Shown piece after piece: positions 1 to 62,868 of a DNA stretch of 64,000 nucleotides (the stretch's first letter is position 1; every line of letters starts with the position of its first letter). Source of the DNA: a virus; IMG/VR virus record IMGVR_UViG_3300036937_000041, positions 26,369 to 90,368 of that record; one strand, 5' to 3'. Both the position numbers and the translations under genes were made by a program. The notes beneath the pieces are model-generated. The model was not told the DNA's origin and did no database searches. It was given only the letters and a program-made list of their open reading frames with translations.

Positions 1-833
1 AGCAGCTTCGCATGCTTGGGCGTGAGCGCCACCCCACAGATGGCCACCGTATTCGTATACCCCGCTTGGTACATGCTAAGCTGATCAAAGTAGCCCTCGA
101 CAATGATCACCCCCTTACACTTAGATATTGATCTCCATGCACGGTCTAATCCATATAGGTACGCACCTTTATCGTAAATTGGGGTATCCGGGGAGTTCAT
201 GTACTTGGGGGTCGCCCCGGGCGCCGTACCGGCAAAGCCGAGCGTTCTCCCCTGCAAGTCGATCAGTGGGAACACCCACCGGGATGCCCATCGATCAAAG
301 TAACCACGATCGCCCTTGATCAGCAAACCGGAGAGTGCGATCAGCTCCGGAGACCAGTCGGACAACCGTCGGCGAAGCAGACCATCGTCGTAGCCCAGTC
401 GGTACTCGGCAACTATCTCGGGGGATAGCCCCCGCCGCCCCACGAAGTAGTCCTCGGCGTCGGCCAGCCGCTCCACAAAATATTGACCAGCAAGATCGTG
501 GACAGCCAACAGCTGGTCTGCCTGATCATCAGCTTTGTACTCAAGTTTGATCCCCAGCCTGTTCGCCAGGTAAGCGGCCGCCTGGCCAAAGGTCATCCGC
601 TGATAGTCCATCAAAAACGTGAACACGTTGCCGCCCCGTCCGCAGCCAAAGCATTTGTATATCTGCTTGGTTCGACTGACGCTAAAGCTCGGTGCCTGCT
701 CCGTGTGGTCTAAAAATGGGCATATTGCCTGATATTCGGTGCTCCCCTTGGCCTTGAGCGTAACCCACTGGGATATCAGGTCAACGATGTCCGTCTGCAC
801 ACGTATGTTGTCCAGCAGATTGCGTGGGATCAT
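1..833 (-). CDS. dnaG: DNA primase (CHC2 zinc finger + Toprim), runs off the left edge
   Basis: Not in the ORF track. Manual translation from the ATG at 833 gives MIPRNLLDNIRVQTDIVDLISQWV..CPFLDH..PSF..YKCFGCGRGGNVFTF (CHC2 finger), and near the edge VIIVEGYFDQLSMYQAGYTNTVAICGVALT (Toprim). Confidence 0.95.
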   Translation of the reverse strand, partial: MIPRNLLDNIRVQTDIVDLISQWVTLKAKGSTEYQAICPFLDHTEQAPSFSVSRTKQIYKCFGCGRGGNVFTFLMDYQRMTFGQAAAYLANRLGIKLEYKADDQADQLLAVHDLAGQYFVERLADAEDYFVGRRGLSPEIVAEYRLGYDDGLLRRRLSDWSPELIALSGLLIKGDRGYFDRWASRWVFPLIDLQGRTLGFAGTAPGATPKYMNSPDTPIYDKGAYLYGLDRAWRSISKCKGVIIVEGYFDQLSMYQAGYTNTVAICGVALTPKHAKL

Positions 834-838
834 AGTAG

Positions 839-847
839 AGTATACGC
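839..847 (-). promoter_or_regulatory. Extended -10 promoter GCGTATACT, 5 nt before the dnaG ATG (leaderless)
   Basis: Minus strand reads gcgTATACTctactATG with no SD; variant of the recurrent GCGTATAAT motif. Confidence 0.7.
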
Positions 848-881: not shown

Positions 882-1152
882 ATGGCCCCTGTGGTTCATT
901 CCACCCGGCAACGATCAACTTGCCGACGCTAGCGTGGGGCCATATAAGATTTGGCCGGTCTGACGCCCATAGATTAACGATGCTCACCGGGCTTCTGCTC
1001 GCACCATACTCGTCTACGATTTATCAAACCGGCCATTCTATACTTTCTCGGCGCTGCACGTCCACCGGTGGAGGCCCGCAGATGTGCACAAGCGGGTAAG
1101 CCCGGCCGTCGATCGGATGAAAGCTATTAGACCGATCAACAGCGCGCGCCGA
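882..1152 (-). ncRNA. Putative structured non-coding RNA, three domains, two candidate pseudoknots
   Basis: No minus-strand ORF of 60 aa or more. Helices 1048-1054/1146-1152, 1105-1116/1132-1143, 952-963/1024-1035 and 882-889/936-943. Mismatches become G-U pairs only on the minus strand. Loop complementarity at 987-994/1098-1105. Confidence 0.65.
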
Positions 1153-1167
1153 TTCCTTATATTCCGC

Positions 1168-1575
1168 TTATCGATTCTCTACCGGGGGTGCCGGAGGCTC
1201 TTCTACAGTCGCCGCGGGCTCGGTCGCCGTAGGTTCGGGCGCCGGAGGCTCTTCTACGGGCGCCGTAGGTTCAGGCGCCGGAGGCTCTTCCGGGGGCACT
1301 GTGGGCGCCTGTGGCGGTGCCGTGGGGGCAACAGGCGGCCGCTCGACTGCCTCCGCCTTCTCGGCCTCCAGGGTGGCGAGCGCCTGCTTGGTGATCAGCT
1401 TTCCGTCGTAGACGGTCAGGTCGAGACGGCTTTCGTTAAGCACCGAACTGGGGCCGACCAGACGATCGATAGCCTGCTCGGCAAACTTGCGGATCAACGG
1501 GCTATCCGGAACATCCAGCTCGTCCTTGAGCGCCTGCGCCAGCTCGTCGCCGACGATAATCTTAATCTCTGACAT
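1168..1575 (-). CDS. Hypothetical protein, RHH-like N-terminus, Pro/Glu-rich repeat tail (EEPPAPEPT)
   Basis: AGGAG SD and promoter motif at 1600-1608 favour the MSEIK start at 1575; repeats visible in the protein. Confidence 0.75.
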   Translation of the reverse strand: MSEIKIIVGDELAQALKDELDVPDSPLIRKFAEQAIDRLVGPSSVLNESRLDLTVYDGKLITKQALATLEAEKAEAVERPPVAPTAPPQAPTVPPEEPPAPEPTAPVEEPPAPEPTATEPAATVEEPPAPPVENR

Positions 1576-1612: not shown

Positions 1613-2704
1613 TTAGAGTACATGGCTAGCATTTGCAGAGTGATCTACTGGTTTTCCCTGGGCGTCCACTATACACCTGTTCGCCTTATCGAATAAAAAT
1701 GTTTTACCGCTAAAGTGCTCGCGGGGGTGCCCGTCCCATGTACATCTACGGCGGAAGAATATTTTCCTATCAGTCCTGGACTTCTTGGCCATACGCTCAA
1801 GAAAATCATTGCCATGCCGTGTGTTGGAGAACATGGTGAGCAGCCCGGGGAGCCTGCCGTTAACCGACTTCCAGGCGACAAATCGAGATTTCATACGCCC
1901 GTAGATCGCGCTGTACATTACTTCCGCCGCGTCATAATCTTGGCCCATGACCGCCTTCTTTGACCCCTCTACGACCTCCAGATAGTTTGCCTCGTCAATT
2001 CCGCCGCCCATCAGATTGTAGCCTATGGCGGACAACGCCGATCCGCTCCCGGGGAAGATCACCACATCCTTGGGAAACCGCAGCTCCGATGGATATTTTT
2101 GGCTCTCTTCAATTTTGGCAATATTACACTGGGGCGGGAAATAGGTGTTGAAAAACGGACAATCAAATGCTTTGAGCACCGAGGTAAACGTGACCTTGCG
2201 CGCCAGCTTGGCGTTGCGCGACATGCAGACAAACGAGATACCCTGACCATCGGGGTCAAGACGATAGTACTCCATTGGCTTCGCACGGGTGAGCACCTGC
2301 ATCACGTCCAGGCGGAGCAGCGATCGAAATTTGTGGGTCTTGCCCGAGCCTATGCCCTCGATGTCAATAAATGTGTCGGTGCCATACCGGTGGCGCGCAT
2401 GCCACAGGTCAATAATATCCTGCCTGTGCACCGGCCACAGCCCCTGGATCTCCCGAGTTTCGTCCTCTATCTGCTCAACGTAATAGCGCCCGCCGCCATA
2501 ATACGGGTCGTCCAACAGTGTCTCCAGCGGCACCGTATCAAACTCTGCCTGATCATGTTCGTCCCACCGCGACTTAGGCTCGTAGACTATTCCACGATCA
2601 CGATCGCGCTCGACCAGCCGAGTGGTCTCGTTTGCGAGCGCGCGGAACATCGGGGTATCAAGGGGATTGTACTGCGGATCGCCAGGTTCAATCATCTGCG
2701 TCAA
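1613..2704 (-). CDS. Terminase large subunit-like ATPase (ATPase domain only)
   Basis: Walker A GIGSGKT, Walker B GGGIDEANY, motif III FSN; 363 aa with no recognisable C-terminal RNase H nuclease domain. Confidence 0.75.
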   Translation of the reverse strand: MTQMIEPGDPQYNPLDTPMFRALANETTRLVERDRDRGIVYEPKSRWDEHDQAEFDTVPLETLLDDPYYGGGRYYVEQIEDETREIQGLWPVHRQDIIDLWHARHRYGTDTFIDIEGIGSGKTHKFRSLLRLDVMQVLTRAKPMEYYRLDPDGQGISFVCMSRNAKLARKVTFTSVLKAFDCPFFNTYFPPQCNIAKIEESQKYPSELRFPKDVVIFPGSGSALSAIGYNLMGGGIDEANYLEVVEGSKKAVMGQDYDAAEVMYSAIYGRMKSRFVAWKSVNGRLPGLLTMFSNTRHGNDFLERMAKKSRTDRKIFFRRRCTWDGHPREHFSGKTFLFDKANRCIVDAQGKPVDHSANASHVL

Positions 2705-3755: not shown

Positions 3756-4114
3756 TTATCGCCCTCCAAAGTCCAGCGCAGCAGGTGATCGAACTTGTAG
3801 AAAATGGGGTACTTGAGCTTCTGCGCCAGGTCATATTCGTCGCGCGCCCCCGGAGAGTTTATCCACCCGTCGACCATGAGCATGCAGTTACATACGTTGA
3901 TGATAATCAGTTTATCGAGCGCAATCCAATAATCGTATTCCGCTGTGGGCGCATACCGATCCATATGCTGGCTGTGCGTGTGTGGACAATAGTGGTAGAT
4001 ACTGTGCTCCGCGCAGCTGATCGCCAACGCGCGCGCCCGCCCAACATTCTCGTCGACGGCGAGCATGGTCGGCGCCGAGTATGGTCCGGCTATGTACACA
4101 AATGGGGTTACCAT
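3743..4114 (-). CDS. Nucleoside 2-deoxyribosyltransferase-like protein (DUF4406/DUF1937 type)
   Basis: VYIAGPYS..CPH..W..SPGARDEYDLA pattern. Confidence 0.75.
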   Translation of the reverse strand: MVTPFVYIAGPYSAPTMLAVDENVGRARALAISCAEHSIYHYCPHTHSQHMDRYAPTAEYDYWIALDKLIIINVCNCMLMVDGWINSPGARDEYDLAQKLKYPIFYKFDHLLRWTLEGDKCHS

Positions 4115-5007
4115 GACGGGAGCGCCTCTACAAAGCCGGGGTCAAGTTTATCGGTCTCGTCCTTAAACTCTTTGACGGCGCGCAGAAGATGCCGCAGGTT
4201 ATTGACACCCCCGGCGGTCTCGATCACCTGTTTTATCGCGGGCAACACTGTAGATAGCTGATCAAGACTATCAACCCCGAGCTCTTTTTTCAGATTGTCG
4301 ACCTCGGAGCGCCGTTGTGCGCTCTCCAAGCGCCTGACCTCGGATGACAGCATAGCTATCTCTTCGGCCATCTTAGTACCGATCTCCCGGCCGAGCAGAT
4401 GATTTCGCTTGCGATCGGCCATCCACGATCTAAAGTAATCTATTTTATTCCCGTGAAATGGCCACCTGTCCGGGTCTACTTTGTTCATCAGTATATACAT
4501 CAGAAAATTGGCATCGAGTGGTACGTTCCTATTCAGCGGTTTGACCACGGTCCTGACCGTCCCCGACTCATGCACGTAGACCAGACCGACCCCGCCGCCG
4601 ATGGTCTTCACCTCGTTCTGGTGGATCAACCCATTGGGGCAGGCGAAGGCAAACACATCACAGTATTGAAGATACTGTGGCCACTTAGTATCGGACAGAA
4701 AATCCTGCCTCGATACTTTTATCTCATAGGCGGTGACCAGCGGGTTGGCCCACGATTTGGCGATGGCCACCAGGTCCATACGACACATGTTATCGTTGAA
4801 CCAAGTGGGGCCGTTCTTGCACTCGGTGACAACAAAGTCTTTTGCATGCCTGCCCTCGGCGAGGGCGCGCGCGATCTCAGCGGCTACCATTGTAAGTATG
4901 GTCCTTTCTGCCACAAAGGCCATCTGATCCAGATGCCGAACAGCAACGGAACATACTTGTATCCCCAGGGTGGCTCTATGGAAAAGGCAGGGCGTAGCCT
5001 CCCCCAC
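4108..5007 (-). CDS. MmcB-family PD-(D/E)xK nuclease-like protein (true start probably near 4890)
   Basis: RMDLVAI..YEIKVSRQDFLSDTKWPQYLQYCDVFAFACP signature. Confidence 0.8.
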   Translation of the reverse strand: MGEATPCLFHRATLGIQVCSVAVRHLDQMAFVAERTILTMVAAEIARALAEGRHAKDFVVTECKNGPTWFNDNMCRMDLVAIAKSWANPLVTAYEIKVSRQDFLSDTKWPQYLQYCDVFAFACPNGLIHQNEVKTIGGGVGLVYVHESGTVRTVVKPLNRNVPLDANFLMYILMNKVDPDRWPFHGNKIDYFRSWMADRKRNHLLGREIGTKMAEEIAMLSSEVRRLESAQRRSEVDNLKKELGVDSLDQLSTVLPAIKQVIETAGGVNNLRHLLRAVKEFKDETDKLDPGFVEALPSW

Positions 5008-7782: not shown

Positions 7783-7799
7783 TAATATGGATTAAAATT

Positions 7800-7871
7800 G
7801 GCCGAGGAAAAGGCGAACCGGGTAGGGGGTTTCGTTTCAAGCGAAGTAACCCGGGTCAATGTCGCTCGGCC
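7800..7871 (-). ncRNA. Short Y RNA-like RNA (no tRNA-like domain)
   Basis: Terminal stem GGCCGAG/CUCGGCC, inner stem CCGGGU/ACCCGG, shared GUUACUUC (7843-7850) and 3' UCGCCUUUUC; same scaffold as the adjacent YrlA. Confidence 0.75.
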
Positions 7872-7879
7872 TATTCGAA

Positions 7880-8021
7880 TTATGTGGGGTAAAGACGATG
7901 AGAGACCTAATGCGCTCTACCAACTGAGCTACCCCGGACATAGCTGGCCCGGGGGCCGGGGTCGAACCGGCGACCTCACGCCCCAAAAGCGAAGTAACTC
8001 TCACCTATGCCACCCACATAA
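7880..8021 (-). ncRNA. yrlA: YrlA-class Y RNA (circularly permuted tRNA mimic)
   Basis: Long terminal stem UUAUGUGGG/CCCACAUAA encloses, in order, a T arm GCCGGUUCGACCCCGGC (7955-7971), a closed acceptor stem with CCA in the loop (7932-7954) and a D arm UAGCUCAGUUGGUAGAGC (7914-7931). Lies just downstream of the Ro60 gene. Confidence 0.92.
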
Positions 8022-8030
8022 ATTTTGTGC

Positions 8031-8099
8031 AGGATGGGAAAAAGGCGAATAAGGTGTTTTTCTAAACAAAGAAGTAACCATATTCTATGCCGCCATCCT
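8031..8099 (-). ncRNA. Short Y RNA-like RNA overlapping the Ro60 stop codon
   Basis: Terminal stem AGGAUGG/CCAUCCU, GGC-AUA bulge-GAAUA/UAUUC-GCC, GUUACUUC at 8071-8078. Confidence 0.75.
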
Positions 8100-9549
8100 A
8101 CAGCTTCATGTTCTTTATCTCAGAGGTTGTCGTCGCGGCTCCGCGCTCGACCGCCAATATGTAGTCAAATATCTTGTCCGACCAGCCTGCGATGGTGTTC
8201 ACCCGCTGGCCGACAACCTGGGTCGTCCCATGCCCGGCCAAGTCCACTATGTGCAGCCAACATTCGGGGGCCACCGACGACCAATATTGGGCCATCATCT
8301 GCTGCAGTGTTGCACTGCTGCTCCACAGGTCATCCCACAGCTGAACATCGGTAAAGATTATAATCCGATCCAGCTTGATGTTGTTCCGCAGCGCGTACTC
8401 GACCACTTTATACCCGTTGGTAGACCCTCCGACATGTGTGTGCATAAACATCTCGGCGCTGGCCAGCGGATCGGCGCCGGTCGGCATGCTAACGATCGAA
8501 AACTCTGTGCCGAACACCGAGGTCAGGGCCTCGGGTGTCCGAGAGGCCACGAGCGCCATCGCCAGGTTGGCAATATCTCTGCGCAAGATCGATGACTTAG
8601 CGGATATACGATCGTTCATCGACCTGCTGTTGTCCGCCGAGCACAAGGTCGCCCCCGGAAACACCGGCAGGTTGGGCACCGAGCGCCGTATGCAGACGGT
8701 CAACGAGTCCAGGACGGTCCGCATACCGAACGCGGCCGCCTGCAGGTCCCGGATCTCCCGATATGCCGAGTAGTATCTGAAGGGGAACTGCTTGGCCTTG
8801 GCAATCTGCTGCGGGTCTTCAAGCTTGGCCAGCAACACCGGGAGCTTAGCCGCCTCGGCGAGCAAGATATTACGCAGATTGCGCAACCCCGCCATATACC
8901 CAAGTTTATCTTCCTCGATCAGCCTGTTCCACGCACCCGCCTTATCCTGCGCGGCCGAGAGCGCGACCTCCCAGGTGTCCGCGGGGGCCAGCGTGCCGTC
9001 CAGCACAGACTTCCACAGACGAGATTGTTCATCATCTTTCGGCCTGGGGTGCGCCAGCTTAATCACGTCCGCCAGCTTGATCTTCCCCCGGCCGCCATTG
9101 TACTTGGCCAGCTGATATGCGTCAAAGGCGGCCAAACACTCGGCCATGCCCTTTCGAGCACCATGGTGAACGCGGATCAGCTTCGGATCCAGCTTGTTGA
9201 CCGCGGCCACAAACTCACGCAGCTGGTCTACACGGATGATCACCCGGCGCATCGCCGGGCGCAACCACTTACTGTGCCTGCGGGCCAGCCTGGCCAACAG
9301 CGCGACCGGCAACGTCCGCAGGTGCGCGCTCTCCCGAGCGTACACGGCCGCCCGGGCGACAAATCCGTCGTCAAGCTGATCGGCAAGGTTGAGCAACCGC
9401 GCTGTCGTATTCCCGTAAAATGAGGGCTCGTTGTACAAGCAGGTGAGCACCCCGGTCACAAACTCTTCCTCCGGGTGCAGCTTATACGCCGGATGCCCCT
9501 CGTGGTTTACCATGCGGGTCGTCATCCTATCTGGATTGATCTTGGTCAT
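8098..9549 (-). CDS. rsr: Ro60/Rsr TROVE-domain RNA-binding protein with C-terminal vWA domain
   Basis: VNHEGHPAY, FYG, FDAYQLAKY, DVIKLAHPRP, TWEVALS, LGYMAGLRNLRN, KQFPFRYYSAY, MIDAS DNSRSM, IIIFTD.Q, AGWSDKIF. AGGAGG SD and own promoter support the MTKINP start at 9549. Confidence 0.95.
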   Translation of the reverse strand: MTKINPDRMTTRMVNHEGHPAYKLHPEEEFVTGVLTCLYNEPSFYGNTTARLLNLADQLDDGFVARAAVYARESAHLRTLPVALLARLARRHSKWLRPAMRRVIIRVDQLREFVAAVNKLDPKLIRVHHGARKGMAECLAAFDAYQLAKYNGGRGKIKLADVIKLAHPRPKDDEQSRLWKSVLDGTLAPADTWEVALSAAQDKAGAWNRLIEEDKLGYMAGLRNLRNILLAEAAKLPVLLAKLEDPQQIAKAKQFPFRYYSAYREIRDLQAAAFGMRTVLDSLTVCIRRSVPNLPVFPGATLCSADNSRSMNDRISAKSSILRRDIANLAMALVASRTPEALTSVFGTEFSIVSMPTGADPLASAEMFMHTHVGGSTNGYKVVEYALRNNIKLDRIIIFTDVQLWDDLWSSSATLQQMMAQYWSSVAPECWLHIVDLAGHGTTQVVGQRVNTIAGWSDKIFDYILAVERGAATTTSEIKNMKL

Positions 9550-9576
9550 CAAAACCTCCTTTACAACTTCTAGTCT

Positions 9577-9585
9577 ATTATACGC
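9577..9585 (-). promoter_or_regulatory. GCGTATAAT promoter of the Ro60-Y RNA cassette
   Basis: Exact motif 28 nt upstream of the rsr ATG. Confidence 0.8.
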
Positions 9586-9589
9586 AATA

Positions 9590-9955
9590 TCAATCCCGTT
9601 TACGATTCTTTTTTCCACGTTTTTTCCGCTTGTTCACCGGCTGCCCGGCCTCGATCAGCACCAGGCCCGCCTTCTCAGCCGGTTGAACGTCTTCCTTGGC
9701 GTACATCACGGGCGTACCCTTTTCCCGATCGAAGGCGATTATCTTCCCAATATGGCGCCGGTTGTCCACCCCCATGTAAAAGCACGGTCTGCCGATTATG
9801 TTAATCCGTTTGAGCCGCTGGTCGCGCATTTTCCTCGTCCGCTCCGAGTAGATGACCACCGGAATCGCCTCCTCCGGATCACAGGGGGTGCCGCGCAGCC
9901 CCTTGAGCTCCAAGTCAGATGAGTAGTCTACAACGTTATTCGGATCCACGCTCAC
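9590..9955 (-). CDS. Hypothetical protein with basic C-terminus
   Basis: AGGAG SD, GTG start. Confidence 0.65.
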   Translation of the reverse strand: MSVDPNNVVDYSSDLELKGLRGTPCDPEEAIPVVIYSERTRKMRDQRLKRINIIGRPCFYMGVDNRRHIGKIIAFDREKGTPVMYAKEDVQPAEKAGLVLIEAGQPVNKRKKRGKKNRKRD

Positions 9956-11282: not shown

Positions 11283-11551
11283 CGATGCTCATCGAGCTCA
11301 ATCACATAATTGAGATCCTGCTTGGACAACCGCAGGCCCTGGTCGGCCGTCAGACCGGCCAGCACCGCGGCAAACACTTTATCGACCTCGGGGATGGCCA
11401 CCGCCGCACCCTTGGGGTACGCGGCGCCAGCGGACAGGACCAGCACATCCCCATCACGATCGGCCACAAAGTAAGTGGGTGCCTCCTGATCGTAGCCGCG
11501 GCTCCTCCACCCAGCACACAGGTCATACAATTTCTTTTGATCTTCGGTCAT
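11219..11551 (-). CDS. Hypothetical protein (paralogue family with 14236-14712)
   Basis: AGGAG SD before MTEDQ; LYDLC..G..Q and IPEVDKV motifs; promoter at 11577-11585. Confidence 0.65.
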   Translation of the reverse strand: MTEDQKKLYDLCAGWRSRGYDQEAPTYFVADRDGDVLVLSAGAAYPKGAAVAIPEVDKVFAAVLAGLTADQGLRLSKQDLNYVIELDEHRWTDVDLRCCALKCLATLDGV

Positions 11552-21303: not shown

Positions 21304-21493
21304 GGTACCGGGGCTATCACGTAGGTTAACACCGATCGCCTCCCCTCCACCGGGTAACCGTCGCATCCGCTTCATATCGAAGCAGATCACCCTTCCGGAT
21401 CGTATCCGCCTTCGAGCATGGAAGTATACATATATTTTTAGTCCGGCGGATCCTCGCAAATCTAGTGAAGGCTTGACCCGCCGCACCGGCACC
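21304..21493 (-). ncRNA. Putative structured non-coding RNA (closing stem plus three hairpins)
   Basis: Stems 21304-21311/21486-21493, 21444-21452/21475-21483, 21377-21387/21404-21415 (GGAA tetraloop inside) and 21324-21336/21349-21359. Each has G-U pairs only on the minus strand. Confidence 0.5.
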
Positions 21494-40190: not shown

Positions 40191-42000
40191 TATATTCCTT
40201 TTCGTCTACAATCTTCAACTCATATTTGGGCTCACCCGCGTAGATCTGTCTGCGGATCTCCGAGTGCTTGGTGCACATAGAGCCCTGGTCATCATCATAA
40301 AAATCGTAAAGTGTAGCGTAATCTTTGTCCTTGGATACTCTGAGCACCCGCCCGAGCTTTTGGATCGTCGCCTTCATGCTCTTGCCCCCACCGGCGATGA
40401 TCAGCGTGTCGATGGCGGGCATGTCAAATCCTTCTTTGAATATCGTTCCGATCAATATTTTGCCATTGGATTTCACGTCCGATATTCCTCGATCGCGCTC
40501 CTGCTTGGTGTGCCCGCCGGTCAGAAACACACACCGATCTTCCCCTATCTCGTGGGCGAGCTTCCACCCCTGATCTTTTATTCGCTCGACGATGATCAGC
40601 ACGTGGGCTCCCCGAGCCTGGCAGTCCAGGGCGAGGTCGACGATTATCTGGTTGCGCCGCTCGTTGTTCAATATGTTGTACTCATAGGCGCCCGGTTCCT
40701 TGACGCCGGTGCGCACCAGCTTTCCCTCAACTTTTTCGTATATGTACTTTGTGGCCCAGACGGTGCGCGCCGGAGAGCATATGCGGATCATCGTGGCCCG
40801 TACCGGGCACAGCACATTGCGATCGATCAGATCGGATACGCCAATGCTGGAGATCACGCGGCCGCACACCGATTCGAGGACAAACTGATTATTCGGCGAA
40901 TCAGCGGTGTTCAGCGTGGCGCTCATCCCAAATCGATAATAGGCGGGGATGGCCATCGCCACCTCCCACCAAGTGTTTGACAAGTTTTCCTTCTGAACCC
41001 ACTTCCCGGTGTACTTATCTCGAACATTTTGAGCCCCGCTGCACGCCGTATGATGACATTCGTCGATGAACATCAGCTTAAACCTGTTCACCAGGTCGCC
41101 AAACCTCGGCCACGAACGCACTAGGTCGAGCGCAATACCGGGGTCGATTACCGTCGGGATCTTCAGCTCATGCCGTTGGCGCTCCGGAGCAGCCTCATAC
41201 AGCTCTTGGTTGCACCTCGACCACTCCCGGCCGTCCTTCACATAGTACTCAGATGTATATTCGACTACGCACTCGGGAACCTGGGTGGCAAAGTAGGTGA
41301 AGCACCTTCTGTACTCACCGTCGGAGGTCATCAGCGGAGCACACTCTTCGACGACCCGCCGGATCTCCGAGCGTTTGAACACGCTGTACAACGTCTGCTG
41401 GGTGGCGATTATTATCGGCGCCCCCGGGTTCAACCGCTTTCCCTCGCCGAGCATGCCCACCGCATGCTCCCCAAAGTAGTCTTGAAATTTGGTGTACGTC
41501 TGGTTGACCAGGGTAAGGTTGGGGACGATCACCAGCGAATCGACTTTGAGCCGGTCGATAACCCTGGCCATGATCACGGTCTTGCCCGCGCCAGTAGGAT
41601 AGTGGAGGAGACCGCGCCCGACCTTAATCGCATCATCTACGGCGAGCTCCTGGAAGGAATAGTCAGCTTGACTGGTGGGCAACGAGGGTAGGCTCAGCCG
41701 AAGATCCGGGTGGTCGTCCGCTCCCGGTTTTTCACGCCGGTCGTCAAACGATACTTGGGCTCCAGCTGTTTTAGCAGCCGCATAAACTCGGGGCAGCAGA
41801 CCCGTCGGAAAGTCCCGGCTTTCCGATCGATAATAATGTACATCTCGCTCTTTCCACTCACCGTGGGCCGCGCCTTTCCTCTTTGAGTAGTAGCGGATGA
41901 CAATTTTTGTCGCCCGCACAATCGTATCCAAATCCTGACCGCCGGTTTCACCCGTGATCTCCACCCGAGTATACAGATTGTCAATCAGTAAGTTTATCAT
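40147..42000 (-). CDS. Superfamily 2 helicase (UvsW/XPB-like) with insertions
   Basis: PTGAGKT, DECH, SAT, EGFD.P, QKLGRVLR. Confidence 0.92.
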   Translation of the reverse strand: MINLLIDNLYTRVEITGETGGQDLDTIVRATKIVIRYYSKRKGAAHGEWKERDVHYYRSESRDFPTGLLPRVYAAAKTAGAQVSFDDRREKPGADDHPDLRLSLPSLPTSQADYSFQELAVDDAIKVGRGLLHYPTGAGKTVIMARVIDRLKVDSLVIVPNLTLVNQTYTKFQDYFGEHAVGMLGEGKRLNPGAPIIIATQQTLYSVFKRSEIRRVVEECAPLMTSDGEYRRCFTYFATQVPECVVEYTSEYYVKDGREWSRCNQELYEAAPERQRHELKIPTVIDPGIALDLVRSWPRFGDLVNRFKLMFIDECHHTACSGAQNVRDKYTGKWVQKENLSNTWWEVAMAIPAYYRFGMSATLNTADSPNNQFVLESVCGRVISSIGVSDLIDRNVLCPVRATMIRICSPARTVWATKYIYEKVEGKLVRTGVKEPGAYEYNILNNERRNQIIVDLALDCQARGAHVLIIVERIKDQGWKLAHEIGEDRCVFLTGGHTKQERDRGISDVKSNGKILIGTIFKEGFDMPAIDTLIIAGGGKSMKATIQKLGRVLRVSKDKDYATLYDFYDDDQGSMCTKHSEIRRQIYAGEPKYELKIVDEKEYNAAKKTFATADLRP

Positions 42001-62449: not shown

Positions 62450-62868
62450 GGCCGGACCCCCGTTCCATATAGTTTGTCCAGTTGTTTGACCAGCTGTTCG
62501 AGCACCTGCGTGTTTTTTATCTGATTGGTATATATTAGATCGAGTTTCTCATCCCGCTTTTCCGCTTTTGATTCCTGTTCTGCCTGCTTTTCCTTGACCT
62601 GCCGGATGGTCGAGGCCGTAACCGCGACCTGCGTTTTGAGCTCCTTGCCCTCAGAGGTAGGGAAATACTTATTATCGCTGATCTGCCGTTCGTTGAGCAC
62701 CGCCGCATGAAGGTTGTCGTCCACCGCTTTGAGCACCGCCGCCTTGTCGCTGAAAAGAAGACTGGCCAACGCGAGTAAAAAACTAAGCCCGGTGAGCACC
62801 AGCATACCGATGCCGATCACTTTTGAGAACTCTATGCCGCCCCGTTCGGTTGTCCTGATGTGGTCCAT
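62446..62868 (-). CDS. Single-TM coiled-coil protein (holin-like or membrane anchor)
   Basis: One hydrophobic helix followed by a coiled coil. Confidence 0.6.
   Translation of the reverse strand: MDHIRTTERGGIEFSKVIGIGMLVLTGLSFLLALASLLFSDKAAVLKAVDDNLHAAVLNERQISDNKYFPTSEGKELKTQVAVTASTIRQVKEKQAEQESKAEKRDEKLDLIYTNQIKNTQVLEQLVKQLDKLYGTGVRP

What the first reader, a model, noticed from the sequence alone, without database searches (positions are those of the whole stretch)
882..1152. Unrecognised ~270-nt pseudoknotted RNA between the terminase ATPase region and primase
Seen: a gap with no minus-strand ORF folds into three domains. Domain I is closed by 1048-1054/1146-1152 and holds a 12-bp hairpin and a UGCAC/GUGCA arm. 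Domain II is a long arm closed by 12 bp. Domain III is a four-way junction (882-943). Several helix mismatches resolve as G-U only on the minus strand, which points to selection at the RNA level. The domain II loop (987-994) is exactly complementary over 8 nt to a single-stranded linker of domain I (1098-1105), and CCCGC/GCGGG (1092-1096/1075-1079) offers a second pseudoknot. dnaG has its own leaderless promoter downstream (839-847), so the RNA need not be a dnaG leader. I do not recognise it as tmRNA, RNase P, SRP, 6S or a riboswitch. Speculation: beside a nuclease-less packaging ATPase, an RNA with interlocking loops recalls phi29 pRNA/gp16; it could also be a ribozyme or protein scaffold.
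Basis: partly seen in the sequence, partly recalled or inferred. Interest (0 to 1): 0.82.

Follow-up and report, generated by a model that had tools for sequence, protein, structure and literature searches.

The report
Orphan structured RNA before phage primase
An uncultured salt-marsh phage carries a roughly 270-base non-coding stretch that folds unusually well as RNA, in a spot where related phages keep tRNA genes, but no relative of it could be found, so its fold is unconfirmed and its job is unknown.

Summary
Window 882-1152 is a non-coding gap. On the gene (minus) strand it folds into three well-defined domains (MFE -124.2 kcal/mol, z -5.36, 0 of 200 shuffles as good; plus strand z -2.88). 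Each domain is significant on its own. It is the most structured of 19 non-coding gaps in the 90-kb phage genome. No Rfam family, tRNA or tmRNA matches.

The 8-nt "pseudoknot" complement exists but is not beyond chance (11.7% of shuffles). The neighbouring ATPase is not nuclease-less. It is the N-terminal half of a split large terminase, and the C-terminal half lies just after dnaG, so the phi29 pRNA/gp16 analogy loses its premise.

No homologue of the RNA was found: about 1.36 Mb of related loci, the closest relative's whole 96-kb record, the phage and plasmid collections, and sequencing runs. Covariation therefore could not be tested.

The RNA sits in a variable cargo slot between the terminase halves. 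Three of the five closest relatives carry a tRNA there, one of them with an 87-nt hairpin.

Best reading (0.38): a lineage-specific, co-transcribed RNA cassette that host RNases cut out, punctuating the operon and leaving a stable RNA. Interest is moderate to low until relatives or RNA data exist.

The parts
1048..1152 (-). Domain I: cloverleaf-like four-way junction. It has a 7-bp closing stem, a 12-bp hairpin with a 15-nt loop, a 4-bp hairpin, and an extended UGCAC/GUGCA arm.
   Evidence: Folds identically alone and in context. -52.9 kcal/mol, z -3.49, 0 of 200 shuffles. Helix probabilities 0.76-1.00.
944..1043 (-). Domain II: long interrupted hairpin of 13 + 7 + 7 bp with an open apical loop of about 17 nt. 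It contains 7 G-U pairs.
   Evidence: -40.8 kcal/mol, z -4.90 on the minus strand, against -29.0, z -3.24 on the plus strand. G-U list.
882..943 (-). Domain III: compact four-way junction with an 8-bp closing stem and arms of 3, 6 and 4 bp. It ends 48 nt before the dnaG ATG.
   Evidence: -29.2 kcal/mol, z -3.21, 2 of 200 shuffles. The plus strand folds about equally well. ARAGORN does not call it a tRNA, even with relaxed settings.
987..994 (-). AAGCCCGG in the domain II apical loop. One arm of the proposed 8-nt pseudoknot or kissing contact.
   Evidence: Exact complement of 1098-1105 (I9). Mostly unpaired in the ensemble. Not beyond chance.
1098..1105 (-). CCGGGCUU in domain I. The other arm of the proposed contact. 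It overlaps the 4-bp hairpin and the last pair of the 12-bp helix.
   Evidence: Largely paired in the MFE ensemble, so the contact competes with local structure.
839..844 (-). TATACT hexamer five bases upstream of the dnaG ATG. Possible -10 box for a leaderless dnaG mRNA.
   Evidence: Sequence read. GTATACT is enriched in the window: 9 found, 3.35 expected, 0 of 100 shuffles reach 9. The promoter scan did not call it. No Shine-Dalgarno sequence precedes the ATG.
3..833 (-). dnaG-type DNA primase. The N-terminal 277 aa lie in the window. The gene runs on beyond the window start.
   Evidence: Pfam Zn_ribbon_DnaG 7.7e-31, DNAG_N 4.3e-19, Toprim. PHROG 6444 1.2e-76.
1168..1575 (-). 135-aa ORF with a Pro/Glu/Ala-rich repeat tail and a strong GGAG ribosome-binding site. 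Its stop codon lies 16 nt before the RNA.
   Evidence: No Pfam or PHROG family.
1613..2647 (-). N-terminal ATPase half of a split large terminase (PF27249 MJ0330_N family).
   Evidence: Precomputed PF27249 on all close relatives. The Atlas neighbours are terminase-large-subunit N-domain clusters. 63% identical to the L002 homologue.

Best explanation
This is a lineage-specific non-coding RNA cassette. It is transcribed on the minus strand together with its neighbours, since every gene of this 90-kb phage lies on that strand. No intrinsic terminator separates the RNA from the 135-aa ORF upstream or from dnaG downstream.

It occupies the variable cargo slot between the two halves of a split large-terminase gene. 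This is the position where the closest relatives carry a tRNA gene, in one case preceded by an 87-nt hairpin.

Inferred mechanism: like those tRNAs, the folded domains are recognised and cut out of the polycistronic transcript by host RNases. The long interrupted hairpin of domain II would be an RNase III-type substrate. The two closed four-way junctions would be compact, nuclease-resistant ends. This would uncouple the upstream message from the dnaG-terminase-portal message and leave a stable structured RNA in the cell.

Shown: the fold, its strand specificity, its non-coding nature, the slot and its contents in relatives.
Inferred: co-transcription, processing, stability, and any trans function.
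For: - Fold far better than shuffles and strand-specific.
- Each domain folds the same alone and in a 386-nt context.
- Most structured of 19 gaps in the genome.
- No ORF longer than 39 aa on the minus strand.
- All long ORFs lie on the minus strand, with a monotonic GC skew.
- No terminator-like site in 600-2000.
- The same slot holds tRNA-Met in L118/L002, tRNA-Gln in L084 and tRNA-Thr in L086. That is 3 of the 5 closest relatives by ATPase identity, and 3 of 13 relatives examined.
- L002 has a promoter-like TTGACT-16-TATACT (spacer counted's sequence), an 87-nt hairpin and then the tRNA directly before dnaG. L084 has a structured stretch around and after its tRNA, z -2.89.
- The slot content is not homologous between relatives although the flanking genes are.
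- Structured phage RNAs of unknown function are known to lie near tRNA islands (GOLLD and ROOL; bioRxiv 10.1101/2024.12.08.627333, passages read).
Against: - No homologue exists in the data reached, so no base pair is supported by covariation.
- No RNA data were obtained, so transcription, ends and stability are unobserved.
- Neither four-way junction scores as a tRNA or has a T-loop consensus, so recognition by tRNA-processing enzymes is conjecture.
- One relative, L085, has no intergenic RNA at all between the small ORF and dnaG. Punctuation at this spot is therefore dispensable.
- A single hairpin would suffice for processing. Three elaborate domains suggest an additional or different function.
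Confidence: 0.38

Rival explanations
1. A trans-acting stable RNA whose fold is itself the function: a protein scaffold, decoy or self-assembling RNA. The domain II apical loop AAGCCCGG would pair with CCGGGCUU of another copy, hand in hand, as in phi29 pRNA or the ROOL and GOLLD cages.
For: - Three elaborate, well-defined domains exceed what processing needs.
- An exact 8-nt complement joins an open apical loop and domain I.
- The loop is unpaired in the ensemble.
- The setting matches that of GOLLD and ROOL: a phage, in a tRNA slot.
- It lies between the terminase halves.
Against: - The complement is not beyond chance, 11.7% of shuffles. Its domain I arm is mostly paired locally.
- No match to any Rfam model, pRNA, GOLLD and ROOL included.
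- The motor is an ordinary two-domain terminase that is merely split, not a phi29-type ATPase.
- Relatives with the same split terminase lack this RNA.
Confidence: 0.22
2. A cis-regulatory 5' leader of dnaG, such as a riboswitch, a thermosensor or a protein-binding operator, that controls primase translation or transcript read-through.
For: - It lies directly upstream of dnaG, which has no Shine-Dalgarno sequence.
- A 15-nt, 80% complement joins the domain II inner strand (1006-1020) and the dnaG start region (829-843) (I2).
Against: - Pairing between the RNA and the dnaG start region is no better than shuffles (16.4% of 1000 shuffles as good) or than other genome segments (10.8% of 333).
- No terminator or sequestering helix reaches the ATG in the MFE of the extended region.
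- By a crude ORF criterion, 0 of 26 phage primase loci have a gap of 120 nt or more before dnaG. In L002 and L084 that criterion was blunted by spurious ORFs over the tRNA region.
- A TATACT five bases before the ATG would start a leaderless mRNA that excludes the RNA.
- No riboswitch family matched at E up to 10.
Confidence: 0.15
3. A DNA-level signal read on one strand: a single-strand initiation or primase-loading site, as in the G4-type complementary-strand origins (recalled, not looked up), or another origin or packaging signal made of hairpins next to the primase gene.
For: - The same strand also folds significantly as single-stranded DNA: z -3.30, 1 of 200 shuffles.
- It lies next to dnaG and between the terminase halves.
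Against: - The signal is weaker as DNA than as RNA, z -3.30 against -5.36. The inner helices of domain II, which rely on G-U pairs, are lost in the DNA fold.
- The repeat scan showed no iterons.
- GC skew does not turn anywhere near it.
Confidence: 0.07
4. No selected function. The region is a decayed remnant of former slot cargo (tRNA genes, hairpins, small ORFs) that happens to fold well.
For: - The slot turns over quickly and its content is unrelated between relatives.
- No homologue or covariation is available.
- Some coding windows of the same genome also fold well: 4591-4860 is the top window of the sliding scan.
Against: - Three adjacent domains are each significant on their own, 0, 0 and 2 of 200 shuffles.
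- Helix probabilities are high.
- G-U pairs are concentrated on the transcribed strand.
- It is the lowest-z gap in the genome.
- A 334-nt gap persists in an otherwise tightly packed phage genome.
Confidence: 0.15

Closest known systems
GOLLD and ROOL RNAs (large ornate phage and prophage RNAs of unknown function)
   Same: Phage-encoded, highly structured and non-coding, with no known protein partner. They typically lie beside tRNA genes. One GOLLD example sits downstream of a Met-tRNA (bioRxiv 10.1101/2024.12.08.627333, passages read).
   Different: They are much longer, many GOLLD members exceeding 800 nt, and are conserved families with covariation. Here the RNA is 271 nt, matches neither Rfam model, has no relatives, and has no tRNA beside it in this phage.
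phi29 pRNA with the gp16 packaging ATPase
   Same: A structured phage RNA near a packaging ATPase gene, with complementary loop sequences that could link copies.
   Different: No Rfam model matched, and the phage pRNA model is recalled to be among them. The ATPase belongs to a terminase family, and its C-terminal half is encoded after dnaG. The loop complement is not beyond chance. Relatives with the same motor lack the RNA.
tRNA genes and tRNA-like punctuation elements in polycistronic transcripts (mitochondrial tRNA punctuation, plant mitochondrial t-elements; recalled, and named in earlier scan note e1-5323598)
   Same: It takes the position that true tRNAs take in relatives. Domains I and III are closed four-way junctions. 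Domain I has a 7-bp closing stem followed by a 2-nt linker, and a 5-bp arm continuous with the 3' strand of that stem (read).
   Different: No tRNA model, ARAGORN call or T-loop consensus. Arm lengths are unlike those of a tRNA. There is no CCA or tRNA-like 3' end.
Phage T7 RNase III processing hairpins and phage T4 stable 'species 1 and 2' RNAs of the tRNA cluster (both recalled; my search for the T4 RNAs found no paper)
   Same: Intercistronic, co-transcribed structured elements that host RNases cut, leaving stable ends or stable small RNAs.
   Different: No sequence or model relationship was tested or testable here. Those elements are single hairpins or tRNA-sized RNAs, not a three-domain 270-nt unit.
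Bacterial Y RNAs (YrlA) bound by Ro60/Rsr
   Same: The same phage encodes a Ro60/TROVE protein. Y-RNA-like sequences with a tRNA-like module lie 7 kb away.
   Different: The RNA lacks the GUUACUUC and UCG(C/U)CUUU motifs that the 7790-8110 stretch carries, even allowing one mismatch. It is not adjacent to the Ro60 gene.

Membership tests
Any Rfam 15 family (4227 models, including tRNA, tmRNA, RNase P, SRP, 6S, riboswitches, ribozymes, pRNA, GOLLD, ROOL) | Covariance-model match at the gathering score, or any match at E up to 10 | tested here: not met
   0 matches in the whole window at gathering. 0 matches at E up to 10 in 700-1700.
tRNA / tmRNA | Cloverleaf with canonical arm lengths, anticodon loop and T-loop, as detected by ARAGORN | tested here: not met
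   0 genes in the window. Relaxed thresholds gave only implausible calls on the opposite strand.
phi29-type pRNA | Works with a stand-alone phi29 gp16-type packaging ATPase in a phage that has no terminase nuclease | tested here: not met
   The ATPase belongs to a terminase-N family. A C-terminal half homologous to fused family members lies after dnaG.
phi29-type pRNA | Complementary loops that link copies into a ring | tested here: inconclusive
   An 8-nt exact complement is present but occurs in 11.7% of shuffles. No covariation data.
GOLLD / ROOL | Family-specific conserved core detected by the Rfam model | tested here: not met
   Only the genomic setting (a phage, in a tRNA slot) is shared.
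Y RNA (YrlA-like) | Adjacent to rsr, with the conserved Ro-binding stem motifs shared by this phage's own Y RNAs | tested here: not met
   About 7 kb from the TROVE gene at 8098-9618. The motifs are absent even with one mismatch allowed.
cis-regulatory leader / riboswitch of dnaG | Conserved structured leader before the regulated gene in relatives, with an expression platform touching the start site or a terminator | tested here: not met
   0 of 26 primase loci have a gap of 120 nt or more. No terminator. Pairing with the start region is not better than chance.
Structured RNA in general | Compensatory base changes among homologues | not testable with these tools
   No homologue was found.
RNase III / RNase P processing site | Specific cleavage by the host enzyme | not testable with these tools
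   Needs RNA end mapping or in vitro cleavage. No RNA run is listed for this sequence.

The most novel reading that the evidence does not exclude
The 271-nt RNA founds a new class of self-assembling phage RNA. The open domain II loop would pair with the domain I linker of a neighbouring copy to build a closed ring or cage. That assembly would work with the split terminase it is embedded in, for example by bridging or timing the separately made ATPase and nuclease halves on the portal. It would be a pRNA-like solution evolved independently in a terminase-using tailed phage.
Probability: 0.05. Interest if true: 0.85.

Novelty: new member of a known kind. Interest (0 to 1): 0.35.

Why it matters
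If real, it adds a compact, three-domain example to the poorly understood set of phage-encoded structured RNAs that live in tRNA slots. The function of that set is a standing puzzle. It would also link such an RNA to an unusual genomic setting, a cargo slot inside a split terminase operon. As it stands it is a single sequence from one metagenome, with thermodynamic support only. It therefore cannot yet make any open question testable. Its value is as a flagged candidate to revisit when closer relatives or metatranscriptomes can be read.

Tried and rejected
Homologue searches, all negative:
- blastn of 860-1170 against phage records and plasmids.
- blastn and nhmmer against 196 fetched loci.
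- A single-sequence covariance model R1 against 195 loci, 1.36 Mb.
- R1 against the phage's own genome, which found only itself.
- R1 against the whole records behind L118 (96 kb) and L119. L084, L085 and L086 were not held, so they were not searched as whole records.
- A single-sequence model is weak for distant relatives, so these blanks do not prove absence.

A 19-nt loop pattern in IMG/VR hit two contigs, L202 and L203. The model matched only about 21 nt there, three times within roughly 115 nt of each contig, with nothing of the rest of the RNA. I rejected these as chance matches to a local repeat.

Related-locus scans:
- Single proteins found nothing.
- Alignments found the 96-kb relative and more distant ones.
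- The first metagenome scan was empty.
- The genome scan gave one distant locus.

Sequencing runs: only the probable source run was listed, a salt marsh metagenome kept as contigs, and no RNA holder was listed. Laying it showed the source contig and no variants.

Ideas rejected:
- An anti-start-codon pairing.
- A MITE-like repeat family for the domain II arms. Only scattered single matches were found, the exact one (11348) lying in coding sequence.
- Trans targets in the phage genome. The best were two 14-nt complements at E 0.085.
- Relation to this phage's Y RNAs.

Sequence search of the ATPase and of the C-half against solved structures gave nothing meaningful.

Literature: a search for the T4 stable RNAs and one for split terminases returned nothing on point. 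One search listed only general RNase P papers, seen as listings and not read. Supplementary files were not consulted.

Full report
**What the window is.** The 64-kb window is the right-hand 64 kb of a 90,368-bp IMG/VR virus record, G000:C1:26369-90368. All long ORFs lie on the minus strand and the GC skew is monotonic. The only sequencing run that holds the DNA is a salt marsh metagenome, probably the source. Around the finding, in the direction of transcription, lie:
- a P-loop ATPase at 1613-2647;
- a 135-aa Pro/Glu-rich ORF at 1168-1575 with a strong ribosome-binding site;
- the 334-nt gap;
- a DnaG-type primase starting at 833 (Pfam Zn_ribbon_DnaG 7.7e-31, DNAG_N, Toprim; PHROG 6444 1.2e-76).

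**Checking the observation.**
- The MFE is -124.2 kcal/mol. Shuffles average -98.1 with SD 4.9, giving z -5.36. 0 of 200 dinucleotide shuffles fold as well.
- The plus strand gives -104.1, z -2.88, 3 of 200.
- The three domains fold the same way in isolation and inside a 386-nt context. Each is significant on its own: domain I z -3.49, domain II z -4.90, domain III z -3.21.
- The strand asymmetry comes mainly from domain II (-40.8 against -29.0 kcal/mol). 12 of 92 pairs are G-U and seven of them are in domain II.
- Most helices have ensemble pair probabilities of 0.9 or more.
- No minus-strand ORF longer than 39 aa crosses the gap.
- Alignment with six relatives fixes the primase start at 833 rather than at the upstream TTG.

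**Genome-wide controls.** I folded all 19 minus-strand gaps of 110 nt or more in the 90-kb genome. This gap had the lowest z, -3.17, although the crude gap call cut off half of domain III. In a 270-nt sliding scan regressed on GC content, the unaligned window 901-1170 ranked 4th on the minus strand. Putting the exact interval's energy into that regression gives, by my own arithmetic, about 4.5 residual SDs. That figure benefits from boundaries chosen to fit the structure. The structure is therefore real as a thermodynamic signal and fits RNA better than DNA: folded as single-stranded DNA, the same strand gives z -3.30 and loses the inner helices of domain II.

**What does not hold up.**
- The 8-nt complement between the domain II apical loop (987-994) and domain I (1098-1105) is exact. 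A complement of that length between a relaxed hairpin-loop region and elsewhere arose in 11.7% of 300 shuffles.
- Forming it yields -14.1 kcal/mol, against 11.3 kcal/mol to free the two arms.
- The 5-nt second pseudoknot is trivial.
- The promoter scan did not call the proposed leaderless promoter. There is nevertheless a TATACT at 839-844, five bases from the ATG. GTATACT is over-represented in the window: 9 found against 3.35 expected, 0 of 100 shuffles reaching 9.

**Known families.**
- Rfam 15 gave nothing at gathering thresholds over the whole window, and nothing at E up to 10 over 700-1700.
- ARAGORN found no tRNA or tmRNA. Relaxed settings gave only implausible opposite-strand calls.
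- The RNA lacks the motifs shared by this phage's own Y-RNA-like sequences next to its Ro60/TROVE gene, and it has no T-loop consensus.

**Search for relatives.**
- Direct DNA searches found nothing: phage records, plasmids, and all fetched loci by blastn and nhmmer.
- Protein searches showed that the ATPase belongs to a small family. 44 proteins matched at E of 1e-5 or better, and all but one of them carry PF27249.
- Scans of IMG/VR, JGI metagenomes and GTDB genomes with protein alignments gave about 200 loci. The nearest is a 96-kb virus record (L002 = L082 = L118) with ATPase 63-64% and primase 36% identical.
- A covariance model built from the single sequence and its centroid fold matched nothing at E up to 10 in 195 loci totalling 1.36 Mb. 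It matched only itself in its own genome. It matched nothing in the full records behind L118 and L119.
- A 19-nt loop pattern hit two IMG/VR contigs, but only a reiterated 21-nt piece matched there.

**Context that changes the interpretation.**
- The ATPase is the N-terminal half of a large terminase. The Atlas neighbours are terminase-large-subunit N-domain clusters, and fused family members of 527-556 aa exist.
- The 398-aa protein immediately after dnaG (genome 24148-25344, outside the window) aligns with residues 286-440 of the fused 551-aa member P0160 (25% identity, E 2e-11). It is 48% identical to the gene after dnaG in L002.
- In 11 of 13 relatives examined, both halves are present on one strand as separate matches, with 0.35-2.9 kb of unrelated cargo between them. 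dnaG is part of that cargo in L118, L084 and L085, as it is in the window.
- After the C-half come a sigma-like protein, the portal and head genes.
- So the motor is not nuclease-less, and the premise of the phi29 gp16/pRNA analogy fails.

**What relatives keep in the same slot.**
- L118/L002 has a promoter-like TTGACT-16-TATACT (spacer counted's sequence), an 87-nt hairpin, then tRNA-Met(CAU) ending 27 nt before dnaG.
- L084 has tRNA-Gln followed by a structured stretch. The tRNA and that stretch folded together give z -2.89.
- L086 has tRNA-Thr.
- L085 has no intergenic RNA at all.
- Rfam confirmed the three tRNAs and nothing else in eight relatives.
- A long gap before dnaG is not a general feature of phage primase genes. 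By a crude ORF criterion, 0 of 26 loci had 120 nt or more. In L002 and L084, spurious ORFs over the tRNA region hid the real gaps.
- The slot is thus a fast-evolving place for RNA genes, not a conserved dnaG leader.

**Most likely mechanism.** The region is surely transcribed with its neighbours: one strand, no terminator-like site in 600-2000. In relatives, excision of the tRNA necessarily cuts the polycistronic RNA at this point. I infer that the window's three folded domains serve the same punctuating role and survive as a stable RNA. Domain II resembles an RNase III-type substrate, and the two closed junctions would make protected ends. This is inference. Nothing here shows cleavage or accumulation, and three elaborate domains are more than punctuation needs.

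**Rivals.**
- A cis-regulatory leader is disfavoured. There is no significant pairing with the start region, no expression platform, and no such leader in relatives.
- A DNA-level primase or origin signal is disfavoured by the weaker DNA fold and the absence of iterons or a skew change.
- Chance or decay cannot be excluded without homologues.

**Comparison with known systems.**
- The nearest known kind is the set of phage-encoded structured RNAs of unknown function that sit by tRNA genes, GOLLD and ROOL (bioRxiv 10.1101/2024.12.08.627333, passages read). This RNA is far smaller and matches neither model.
- It works-like, at best, tRNA punctuation elements and phage RNase III sites. Those comparisons are recalled, and no paper was found for the T4 stable RNAs.
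- It is not a member of the pRNA, tRNA, tmRNA or Y RNA families, nor of any Rfam family, by the tests run.

**Verdict.** This is an orphan, thermodynamically strong, strand-specific structured RNA candidate in the cargo slot of a split terminase operon. It is a new member of a known kind. Interest is 0.35 until closer relatives or RNA data allow the fold and any processing to be tested.

Noticed in passing
window 1613-2647 (-) and genome C1:24148-25344 (-), outside the window; L118, L084, L085, L086, L089, L120, L122, L093, L098, L100, L201: The large terminase of this phage group is split into separate N-half (ATPase, PF27249) and C-half genes. Between them lie 0.35-2.9 kb of variable cargo: dnaG, tRNAs and small ORFs. 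Both halves were found in 11 of 13 relatives checked. One literature search found no description of this.
   Followed up: partly
window 7790-8110 and 8098-9618 (-): A Ro60/TROVE gene (Pfam 1.3e-21, PHROG 850 3.2e-43). It is followed by sequences carrying GUUACUUC three times and a tRNA-like module (GGTTCGA T-loop, GTAGCTCAGTTGGTAGAGC D-arm). Window 7912-7981 is 81.7% identical to an unannotated stretch of Mycobacterium phage Rey. This is the subject of another first-stage note.
   Followed up: partly
L002:3770-3973 (= L118:5300-5505): In the closest relative, a promoter-like TTGACT-16-TATACT (spacer counted's sequence) is followed by an 87-nt perfect-stem hairpin and then tRNA-Met(CAU), 27 nt before dnaG. 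The hairpin has no Rfam match.
   Followed up: partly
window 839-845, 1600-1606, 21423-21429, 41968-41974 and others: GTATACT occurs 9 times against 3.35 expected, with 0 of 100 shuffles reaching 9. Several copies on the minus strand sit just upstream of gene starts. This is possibly the phage's or host's -10 element.
   Followed up: partly
window 4591-4860 (-): The best GC-adjusted folding energy in the 270-nt sliding scan (-110.6 kcal/mol, 3.2 residual SD) lies inside the coding region of the MmcB-like gene at 4108-5007.
   Followed up: no
window 62785-62798 and 11348-11361: Two 14-nt perfect complements to the RNA lie in the phage's own minus-strand transcripts. One matches the domain II apical loop and the other its 3' basal arm. 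BLAST E is 0.085 each. Probably chance.
   Followed up: partly
genome C1:23298-24137 (-), outside the window: A 279-aa protein with weak sigma-70 region 4 matches (Pfam 8.5e-5, below cutoff; PHROG 351 4e-6) sits between the terminase C-half and the portal gene.
   Followed up: no
L201 (DATDSF010000038.1): A 121-kb contig binned in a MAG labelled Candidatus Nanoarchaeia carries a split-terminase relative at the same locus coordinates and identities as the JGI contig L100. It is probably a phage contig mis-binned into the MAG, or the same sequence filed twice.
   Followed up: no
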